Assembly: GCA_951406725.2 (NCBI GenBank)
Contig: OX597819.1
Location: 23,746,001 to 23,810,000, forward strand
Direction of reading: 5' to 3'
Length of the DNA stretch: 64,000 bases
Source: Octopus vulgaris
Taxonomy: Eukaryota
Part shown: positions 2,903 to 53,034 of the stretch, in pieces
Numbering within the stretch: position 1 is the first letter of the stretch
Layout of the letters: each line of letters opens with the position of its first letter
Translations under genes and position numbers: made by a program
Notes under the pieces: generated by a model
The model's input: the letters and a program-made list of their open reading frames with translations, nothing else
What the model was told of the DNA's origin: nothing
Database searches by the model: none

Positions 2903-3128
2903 TATATTTCGGGGCTACAACCTCTTCTTGCAGCAAGAGGTTTTGTCAGCCAACAGGTCGCGGTCTCAAAGCGACGAAAATATTTTGACATATTAAATTT
3001 AAATGTTGATGTGAATCTAACGGTTTTTGTGTGTTTCTTAAATGTCTTATAAACACCTTCCACACTGCAATTGTTTTCGTTCCAGTACACGGATCTCAGA
3101 TCAAGTCACTCGCTATGCAAGTACAAAT

Positions 3129-3131
<3 letters not shown>
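2903..3131 (+). mobile_element. Short non-coding repeat family E with a variant hammerhead, abutting (TA)n
   Basis: About 200 bp homologous to the reverse complement of 49341-49563. Confidence 0.8.
2944..2990 (+). ncRNA. Minimal type-I hammerhead-like motif, G3-C8 core variant (this copy also mutated at core positions 4-5)
   Basis: tgtca GCCAACA g gtcgc-ggtctcaaa-gcgac GAAA atat TT tgaca: stem I, stem II, GAAA and a palindromic stem III (AATATT). Confidence 0.55.
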
Positions 3132-3199
<68 letters not shown>

Positions 3200-49310: not shown

Positions 49311-49340
49311 GACTTAATAGTTAGTATTTAATTATATATA

Positions 49341-49563
49341 TATATATATATATATGTATTACGGAGATGTACTTGCATAGCAAGTGATTTGATCTGAGAT
49401 CGTGTGCTGAAACGAAAACAATTGCAGCGTGGAAGCTGTTTGTAAGCCATTTAAGAAACACACAAAAGCCACTCGATTCACTTGAACATTTAAGTTTAAT
49501 TTGTCAAAAAATGTTCGTCGCTTTAAGACTGCGACCTGTTCACTGACAAAAATTCGTGCTGCA
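49341..49563 (-). mobile_element. Family E repeat, (TA)n-flanked
   Basis: Inverted homologue of 2903-3131. Confidence 0.8.
49500..49550 (-). ncRNA. Minimal type-I hammerhead-like motif, G3-C8 core variant
   Basis: Minus strand: tttgtca GTGAACA g gtcgc-agtcttaaa-gcgac GAAC attt TT tgacaaa; 7-bp stem I, 5-bp stem II; GAAA and stem III mutated here but intact in the 2944-2990 copy. Confidence 0.6.
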
Positions 49564-49592
49564 TATATGTATGTATATATATATATATACAT

Positions 49593-51993: not shown

Positions 51994-52039
51994 GACACCT
52001 GATGAAGGCTGGAGGGTATACAAGCCGAAACATTGTGTC
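51994..52039 (+). ncRNA. Minimal type-I hammerhead ribozyme, tandem copy 1
   Basis: gacac CTGATGA a ggct..agcc GAAA ca TT gtgtc. Confidence 0.75.
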
Positions 52040-52185
52040 AACAACAAACAAGATGAGGACAAATATCCGTCAAATGTAAATGATGTACGTAGGCAGTCTA
52101 GAAGTTTCGGAACAAACCTCTACTGACACACTCACTTTAATGCATTTATTGCAGCGCTCTAGCCACTTCGGGAAGGCCCCCCGAA

Positions 52186-52231
52186 GACACCTGATGAAGG
52201 CTGGAGGGTATATCAGCCGAAACGTTGTGTT
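52186..52231 (+). ncRNA. Minimal type-I hammerhead ribozyme, tandem copy 2
   Basis: gacac CTGATGA a ggctg-gagggtatat-cagcc GAAA cg TT gtgtt; palindromic AACGTT stem III; GUU triplet. Confidence 0.8.
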
Positions 52232-52321
52232 AACAATAAACAAGATGAGGACAAATATCCGTCAAATGTAAATAATGTACATAATTCCTCATCCCTTAAA
52301 TATAGAACTGTATTGTATATT

Positions 52322-52692: not shown

Positions 52693-53034
52693 CTTATAAA
52701 TAAGGGCTAAAGAAAATTATTTCTATGCCAATATGTTGATAGCAGACTTTTAAATCGTCAATTTCCACACATTATTTACTCGCTACAGAAAAACACTCGA
52801 AGAGCTGAAATCGAGGAAAGCCGGCCGATAGAACTTTTTAAAAAAGTTCGTTATTTCTATATTGAATCAATTTCGGAATTAAACTCAAAATAGATTTTTT
52901 TCCTCTTCAGTAGAAGATACGAAAGGATATAAATAAGATACTTACATGCGCCCATTCCGAAATTGAGTACCGCATTTAGTCGAACAAATCGACATCAGGA
53001 CTTATTCTTTGTAAGCCTAGTACTTTTGCCGAAC

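What the first reader, a model, noticed from the sequence alone, without database searches (positions are those of the whole stretch)
49341..49563. Repeat family with an inverted G3-C8 hammerhead core (GUGAACA)
Seen: stem I (7 bp), GUGAACA, stem II (5 bp), GAA[A], AUAU and UU then stem I', combining this copy with 2944-2990. The core differs from CUGAAGA only at positions 3 and 8. Established: the C3G/G8C double change preserves the 3-8 pair and is the classic rescue mutant. Inference: a natural, multicopy G3-C8 hammerhead with a UUU cleavage triplet. Together with the U3-A8 and C3-G8 elements, the window shows three of the four Watson-Crick versions, which points to a hidden pool of ribozyme-bearing, mostly (TA)n-associated retroelements missed by CUGANGA searches. 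This is my best candidate for the undescribed system.
Basis: partly seen in the sequence, partly recalled or inferred. Interest (0 to 1): 0.85.

Follow-up and report, generated by a model that had tools for sequence, protein, structure and literature searches.

The report
Penelope retroelement hammerhead with swapped pair
This 200-base repeat is the end-piece of a Penelope-like jumping gene with thousands of copies in an octopus genome; it carries a small hammerhead RNA motif whose core C-G pair is naturally flipped to G-C, which likely still lets the RNA cut itself weakly (untested) and hides the motif from standard searches.

Summary
Largely confirmed at family level; both window copies are broken. 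Window 49358-49564(-) is the pseudo-LTR plus tail of a Penelope-like element (RT + C-terminal GIY-YIG, Neptune/Nematis-type linker). The G3-C8 core 20-mer occurs 6,323 times, 92% of 6,905 matches with positions 3 and 8 left free, and sits intact 1 kb behind the stop codon in 8 of 8 young ORF-linked loci. Across 12 ORF-linked homologous motifs the 3-8 pair is always Watson-Crick (7 C-G, 4 U-A, 1 G-C). The sister family has C3-G8, so G3-C8 is a derived compensatory swap. Against strong activity: 5' ends of copies pile up about 60 nt upstream of the cut site with a cap-like extra G (1 of 99 at the cut site), so insertions likely come from uncut RNA, and an unpaired G3-G8 sub-lineage (220 copies) also spread. 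No U3-A8 element was found in the window. Natural U3-A8 and the engineered C3G/G8C rescue are in print; natural G3-C8 was not found in my searches. New variant of a known kind; cleavage untested.

The parts
49358..49564 (-). Solo pseudo-LTR plus tail of a Penelope-like element ('family A'), 5'-truncated to about the transcription start
   Evidence: same sequence ends ORF-bearing copies; coordinates
49555..49564 (-). 5' end of the copy, at the family's shared 5' boundary (likely capped transcription start, inferred)
   Evidence: 45 of 99 copies start 57-64 nt before the cut site; extra G in 16 of 21
49544..49550 (-). Hammerhead stem I, 5' arm (7 nt)
49537..49543 (-). Core G3 U4 G5 A6 A7 C8 A9 (G3-C8 swap)
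49536..49536 (-). Extra unpaired G between A9 and stem II
   Evidence: G in 12 of 12 homologous motifs
49517..49535 (-). Stem II (5 bp, G10.1-C11.1) and 9-nt loop II
49507..49516 (-). G12 A13 A14, palindromic stem III region and H17 (broken in this copy: A15.1 is C); predicted cut between 49507 and 49506
49500..49506 (-). Stem I, 3' arm
49358..49450 (-). First 31 codons of the element's ORF (start codon 49450), homologous by eye to the N-terminus of the sister family's ORF
49358..49418 (-). About 60-nt 'tail' extension, present in 19 of 40 sampled copies
49333..49357 (.). (TA)n target flank
   Evidence: 28 of 40 sampled copies have (TA)4+ at the 3' end
2930..3131 (+). Second, more decayed copy of the same pLTR plus tail; core GCCAACA at 2949-2955; followed by (TA)n 3132-3196

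Best explanation
The repeat is the pseudo-LTR and tail of a Penelope-like retrotransposon, and the motif in it is that element's minimal type I hammerhead with the C3-G8 core pair replaced by G3-C8, which likely keeps a weak, dimer- or protein-assisted self-cleavage 56 nt ahead of the start codon. Shown: the link to an RT plus GIY-YIG ORF, inverted and tandem copies, tail, (TA)n flanks, the ORF start inside the repeat, and a homologous motif at the same place in sister and more distant elements with the 3-8 pair always Watson-Crick. Inferred mechanism: transcription starts about 60 nt upstream of the cut site (capped); the element's protein primes reverse transcription at one of two internal sites in the first codons of the ORF (the two 3' ends) and copies back to the cap, giving about 150-210-nt solo pLTRs such as this one, or starts in a downstream pLTR and gives ORF-bearing copies. 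Two motifs would pair through the palindrome AAUAUU to build stem III and cut after U17 in a minority of transcripts. Most insertions come from uncut RNA. The swap was probably fixed because the 3-8 pair is needed, but the need is weak enough that an unpaired sub-lineage spread for a while.
For: ORF link: (GIY-YIG PF01541, E 2.4e-6, above cut-off). Intact G3-C8 motif in 8 of 8 young ORF-linked loci fetched and 25 of 40 position-ordered copies. Counts with 3 and 8 free: G/C 6,323; G/G 220; G/W 159; H/C 185; both changed 18. Covariation: 12 of 12 ORF-linked motifs Watson-Crick at 3-8, three pair types; 64 of 200,000 permutations reach this, relatedness ignored. All 11 descriptor hits printed for 76 metagenome loci were on the sense strand. 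Tree: family A sister to C3-G8 family B (SH-aLRT 100) inside C3-G8/U3-A8 relatives (quick tree). Between subfamilies loop II varies at 6 of 9 columns, the 3' half of the motif at 1 of 22, and that one keeps stem I as a G-U pair. No other letter at 5% or more at the core in four runs from four coded organisms. In a PLE hammerhead, C3G/G8C partly rescues cleavage and cleavage needs the element's protein (PMC11167929, main text read). H17 is U, avoiding a G3-C17 pair (PMC3884650 passage reports G3-C8 fares worse with C17).
Against: No cleavage data. Only 1 of 99 copy 5' ends is at the cut site, and that one is a fold-back through stem I; 4 of 99 lie within 6 nt. An unpaired G3-G8 form has 220 exact copies, about ten times the roughly 18 G-to-C changes seen at position 3, mostly (19 of 24) in the older subfamily: an inactive-looking core was mobilised. 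The sister family's latest wave carries A9C (92 of first 100), so cores in this lineage tolerate change. The AU-only palindrome is weak (-0.2 kcal/mol duplex) and the predicted fold pairs G3 with U17 as a wobble. The rest of the pLTR varies at only 10 of 82 columns, so the low variation in the motif is not by itself significant. G3-C8 is one evolutionary event among the 12 motifs.
Confidence: 0.65

Rival explanations
1. The motif is a hammerhead descendant that no longer cuts; stems I and II are kept as a binding or regulatory structure in the 5' UTR (protein loading, translation, RT processivity) and the G3-C8 state is frozen history.
For: Insertions come from uncut RNA; G3-G8 sub-lineage spread; sister family fixed A9C; HHR mutants do not affect insertion in vitro and no RNA-seq ends at the cut site in the anole element (PMC11167929); weak palindrome.
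Against: Two transversions that restore exactly the 3-8 pair, with the other core positions unchanged, are unlikely under a dead core; the younger wave is back to about 1% G8 (3 of 24 sampled G8 copies are young while half of C8 copies are); 12 of 12 homologues keep the pair.
Confidence: 0.27
2. The short copies are an independent non-autonomous retrozyme (tandem circular RNA element) rather than truncated PLE copies.
For: A head-to-tail array of 166-nt units exists (L005); non-LTR retrozymes are proposed to derive from pLTRs (bioRxiv 10.64898/2026.07.22.740005, abstract to methods read).
Against: Copies are colinear with ORF-bearing elements and share their subfamily variants; partners are mostly inverted (21 of 40); 5' ends map to a capped-looking start, not to the cut site.
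Confidence: 0.05
3. The resemblance is chance or a by-product of coding: a 68-codon frame can be read through the motif in some copies.
For: An open frame crosses the motif in copies with TTA CAA.
Against: That frame is closed by a common variant that is silent in the true ORF frame; homologous motifs sit at the same place in elements 33-52% identical in protein with different stem sequences; 1 hit in 60 simulated windows.
Confidence: 0.03

Closest known systems
Minimal type I hammerheads (min-HHR) of metazoan Penelope-like elements (Cervera and de la Pena 2014, PMC4209133; parts 1-2 of 4 of the text and supplement passages read)
   Same: Location in the pLTR, extra nucleotide between 9 and 10.1, G10.1-C11.1, palindromic stem III region implying a dimer, mostly solo truncated copies genome-wide.
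   Different: G3-C8 instead of C3-G8 (they report only U3-A8 as a natural swap, about 1,300 hits in Schistosoma); extra nucleotide is G where their consensus gives H; 7-bp stem I and 6-nt palindrome.
Natural U3-A8 hammerheads (Perreault et al. 2011, PMC3088659, passages read)
   Same: Compensatory change of the same core pair.
   Different: Transition pair U-A there, double transversion G-C here; their final filter disqualified core changes.
Engineered C3G/G8C rescue in the Poseidon-clade PAc element of Anolis (PMC11167929, main text read)
   Same: Same swap in a PLE hammerhead partly restores cutting; ORF starts in or near the motif; two internal RT start sites explain the tail; uncut RNA is the main insertion substrate.
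   Different: Engineered, not natural; PAc lacks the CX2-5CxxC linker seen here; the ORF here starts 56 nt after the cut site.
Neptune / Nematis clades of C-terminal EN+ PLEs (Craig et al. 2021, PMC8557442, passages and supplement search)
   Same: RT then GIY-YIG with CCHH, CX3CxxC linker, (TA)n targets, inverted 5'-truncated partner, tail.
   Different: Tail about 60 nt rather than 30-40; 1-kb microsatellite-rich 3' UTR; the only Octopus rows seen in their supplement are Naiads, and the motif strings were not found in it.

Membership tests
Penelope-like elements, C-terminal EN+ | Single ORF with RT followed by GIY-YIG endonuclease | tested here: met
   P0004, 967 aa open (5'-truncated), GIY-YIG PF01541 E 2.4e-6; RT motifs by eye, RVT_1 only weak in homologues; sister ORF complete at 1,309 aa
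Penelope-like elements, C-terminal EN+ | pLTRs in tandem or inverted arrangement | tested here: met
   L061, L095, L097-L099, L112; inverted partner in 21 of 40
Penelope-like elements, C-terminal EN+ | Optional tail extension at one end | tested here: met
   two 3' ends about 60 nt apart; tail in 19 of 40
Penelope-like elements, C-terminal EN+ | CCHH motif in the endonuclease | tested here: met
   two Cys between the GIY-like and YIG strands and two downstream His in P0004, read by eye
Penelope-like elements, C-terminal EN+ | Retained spliceosomal intron (some families) | tested here: inconclusive
   acceptor-like text 5' of the motif is better read as the transcription start; no splice joint in contigs
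Neptune clade | CX2-5CxxC linker before a C-terminal GIY-YIG (shared with Nematis) and (TA)n bias | tested here: met
   CX3CxxC in P0004; 28 of 40 copies end in (TA)n
Neptune clade | RT phylogeny with named Neptune and Nematis references | not tested
   no named reference sequences were available; the tree holds unnamed relatives only
PLE minimal hammerhead (min-HHR) | Literal CUGANGA core | tested here: not met
   GUGAACA in 6,323 copies, CUGAAGA in 0 of 18 double-changed copies
PLE minimal hammerhead (min-HHR) | Watson-Crick pair between positions 3 and 8; U4, G5, A6, A9, G12, A13, A14, A15.1-U16.1, H17 | tested here: met
   family majority and young copies; not met in the two window copies
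PLE minimal hammerhead (min-HHR) | Extra nucleotide 9/10.1, G10.1-C11.1, palindromic 15.2-16.2 and loop 3 | tested here: met
   extra base is G, palindrome AAUAUU
PLE minimal hammerhead (min-HHR) | Position in the pLTR, sense strand, conserved across related elements | tested here: met
Hammerhead ribozyme (catalytic) | Site-specific self-cleavage | not testable with these tools
   only assembled contigs were available; genomic 5' ends show no pile-up at the site
Non-LTR retrozyme | Head-to-tail monomer arrays without ORF | tested here: not met
   one array (L005) among 30 best loci; family is ORF-linked

The most novel reading that the evidence does not exclude
G3-C8 is an active natural hammerhead core, the third Watson-Crick version found in nature, fixed by a double transversion whose unpaired G3-G8 intermediate may still be lying in the genome. 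Both large related PLE families of this octopus (about 6,900 and 3,600 exact core matches) carry cores that CUGANGA descriptors miss (G3-C8 and A9C), so PLE clades now called hammerhead-less may hide variant cores, and these high-copy families give a ready test of what the PLE hammerhead is for.
Probability: 0.45. Interest if true: 0.65.

Novelty: new variant of a known kind. Interest (0 to 1): 0.5.

Why it matters
The 3-8 pair was shown by engineered swaps, and only the U3-A8 swap has been reported in nature in the papers I could read. A G3-C8 core carried by thousands of young copies, with a C3-G8 sister family and U3-A8 cousins, is phylogenetic evidence that selection acts on the active-site pair in PLE hammerheads, whose role is disputed (cleavage is not needed for insertion in vitro). 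It also shows that fixed-core descriptors undercount these motifs by thousands in one genome. The cap-like 5' boundary gives a genomic read-out that uncut RNA is the insertion template, matching the in vitro result. It is a refinement for ribozyme and transposon specialists, not a new system.

Tried and rejected
Rfam: no hammerhead family matched a young G3-C8 copy, but none matched the canonical C3-G8 minimal motifs of the window either, so the miss says nothing about the swap; the whole-window scan listed only microsatellite-driven matches in its top 150 of 269. Splice-acceptor reading of the 5' boundary: dropped after the 5'-end histogram and extra-G count and no joint in contigs. 5' ends at the cut site as a trace of cleavage: not found. 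RNA evidence: no RNA holder listed on record; runs are contigs only. U3-A8 element in the window: not found. C3-G8 subfamily inside family A: 0 of 18 double-changed copies. Whether G3-G8 is a retained intermediate or a reversal: equal parsimony on the tree and equal age, 4.1% versus 4.2%; unresolved; inverted partners of G8 copies were G8 in 3 and C8 in 3 cases. Pfam found nothing in two ORF fragments or in the sister ORF, and PDB search found nothing. The MAFFT alignment of motifs had a wrong coordinate for one row and was replaced by a structure-anchored table. No motif was found downstream of L183, L184, L191, L194, L202, L206, L212, L226 (one implausible long-loop hit in L226) and only a decayed one in L209; these rows are not in the 12. 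Literature: searches found no natural G3-C8 hammerhead; Lunse et al. 2017 (small PLE hammerhead variants) and Przybilski and Hammann 2007 are not held, and one supplement file of PMC4209133 was not searchable, so a prior report there cannot be excluded. The careful tree did not finish; the quick tree is cited.

Full report
Observation. On the minus strand, 49550-49500 reads stem I (7 nt), GUGAACA, one extra G, a 5-bp stem II with 9-nt loop, GAA, six bases, U17 and the complement of stem I. This copy has C at 15.1; the second window copy (2930-3131, +, 86% identical) has GCCAACA. The window is from a 2.8-Gb genome; a protein that its source names Octopus vulgaris matches it at 100%.

What the repeat is. 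Copies extend 5' through about 1 kb of microsatellite-rich sequence into the end of an ORF. That ORF has RT motifs, a CX3CxxC linker and a GIY-YIG domain with CCHH (PF01541 E 2.4e-6), and many copies 92-95% identical in protein. Copies show inverted 5'-truncated partners (21 of 40), two 3' ends about 60 nt apart (tail in 19 of 40) and (TA)n flanks (28 of 40) (the 40 come from the first 43 position-ordered matches, one region per inverted pair). The repeat holds the first 31 codons of the ORF, similar by eye to the N-termini of the sister family and of L176. These are the features given for C-terminal EN+ Penelope-like elements in PMC8557442 (passages). Neptune is the likeliest clade, but the linker is shared with Nematis and no reference tree was run.

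Is G3-C8 the working state? It is intact in 8 of 8 young ORF-linked loci fetched. With positions 3 and 8 left free in a 20-mer the genome holds G/C 6,323, G/G 220, G/W 159, H/C 185 and 18 with both changed, none C3-G8. The whole motif is intact in 25 of 40 sampled G3-C8 copies. It persisted through an older (4.2% diverged) and a younger (1.9%) wave, while loop II changed at 6 of 9 columns and the 3' half of the motif at 1 of 22, a change that keeps a G-U pair; the rest of the pLTR varies at 10 of 82. Contigs of four runs from four coded organisms show no other letter at 5% or more in the core.

Covariation. The sister family (52% protein identity, complete 1,309-aa ORFs) has a motif at the same place with C3-G8 and compensated stems; its latest wave has A9C (92 of the first 100 of 3,643 matches), older copies the canonical core (3 of 100). 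Of 76 metagenome loci, the descriptor printed 11 hits, all on the sense strand. Among 23 loci examined downstream of the ORF, ten distinct close relatives gave a motif, three of them spotted by eye; eight gave none, one was decayed, three were near-duplicates of L197 and one was the outgroup. In the 12 motifs, 3-8 is C-G 7, U-A 4, G-C 1; 64 of 200,000 permutations do as well, ignoring relatedness. All 12 have the extra G and G10.1-C11.1; 11 have a full palindrome. Stem pairing was required by the scan and is not independent evidence. A quick tree of 23 proteins puts family A sister to the C3-G8 family (SH-aLRT 100) among C3-G8 and U3-A8 relatives, so G3-C8 is a single derived event.

How it likely works. 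5' ends of 99 copies sampled by a pattern downstream of the cut site cluster 57-64 nt upstream of it (45 of 99); 7 read further upstream; 1 is at the site and 4 within 6 nt. At the cluster a G replaces the template C in 16 of 21 and 15 of 19 non-C junctions (some may be microhomology with the inverted partner). An extra G marks reverse transcription of the cap in full-length LINE-1 insertions (PMC11702581, passage). So short copies are likely cDNAs from a capped start in the pLTR to an internal priming site, made from uncut RNA, as shown in vitro for the anole element, where the hammerhead needs the protein, C3G/G8C partly rescues it, and cutting is dispensable for insertion (PMC11167929). The motif would cut as a dimer through AAUAUU, as proposed for minimal hammerheads (PMC4209133), in a minority of transcripts; this could release unit-length RNA or remove the cap 56 nt before the start codon. 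Hammerhead cutting in viral 5' UTRs can drive cap-independent translation (PMC13725137, passages), a possible but untested role here.

Against. No cleavage evidence. The unpaired G3-G8 form is about ten times commoner than the matching transversion at position 3 (10 of the first 100 of 185), mostly in the older subfamily (19 of 24) and of equal age, so a likely inactive core was mobilised; whether it is an intermediate or a reversal is open. The palindrome duplex is weak and G3 can wobble-pair with U17; U17 at least avoids the G3-C17 pair that a passage in PMC3884650 suggests is worse.

Prior art. Natural U3-A8 is reported (PMC3088659 passages; PMC4209133). The published descriptor is '^cuganga' with consensus CUGANGAH and misses both octopus families. 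Searches found no natural G3-C8; two key papers are not held. Also consulted by passages: PMC6155905, PMC6765202, PMC10085705, PMC7229834; the first fifth of bioRxiv 10.64898/2026.07.22.740005. Earlier unchecked notes of this scan describe G3-C8-like motifs in protist PLEs; they are leads only.

Verdict. A real, high-copy, natural G3-C8 version of the known PLE minimal hammerhead, with good comparative support for the structure (about 0.9) and moderate odds of real cleavage (about 0.6). New variant of a known kind; interest 0.5.

Noticed in passing
L100:6886-6932 (G000:C15, sister family; 3,643 pattern matches): Very young sister PLE family (99% identical copies, intact 1,309-aa ORFs) whose hammerhead has A9C and a non-palindromic AGAACU; older copies have the canonical core and C17. 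A9C recurs with U3-A8 in metagenome locus L177.
   Followed up: partly
L133-L162 and L108: G3-G8 (unpaired) sub-lineage of family A, 220 exact copies, mostly in the older subfamily; intermediate or reversal unresolved.
   Followed up: partly
window 49555-49564 and family-wide: Sharp shared 5' boundary with an extra G, consistent with reverse transcription to the cap of a pLTR transcription start; may be a general way to map PLE start sites from genomes.
   Followed up: partly
L309, L311, L349, L351, L352, L356, L374: Seven of 99 sampled copies share one identical fold-back junction 34 nt before the cut site: a hairpin derivative amplified as a unit.
   Followed up: no
window 51994-52044 and 52186-52236 (+): Two canonical C3-G8 minimal hammerheads 192 nt apart in partial tandem, another likely pLTR family; Rfam misses them.
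   Followed up: partly
window about 52855-52915 (-); similar text in L056 upstream: CUGAAGA-core hammerhead-like motif with a longer stem III in another repeat family.
   Followed up: no
L175:4966-5023: Relative with U15.1-A16.1 inversion inside a UAGCUA palindrome.
   Followed up: no
L061:4940-5992 (-): Tc1/mariner-like transposase fragments next to a PLE insertion (named from recalled motifs, not searched).
   Followed up: no
L005:735-1695: Head-to-tail array of about five 166-nt pLTR units separated by (TA)n, a retrozyme-like arrangement that could form dimers in cis.
   Followed up: no
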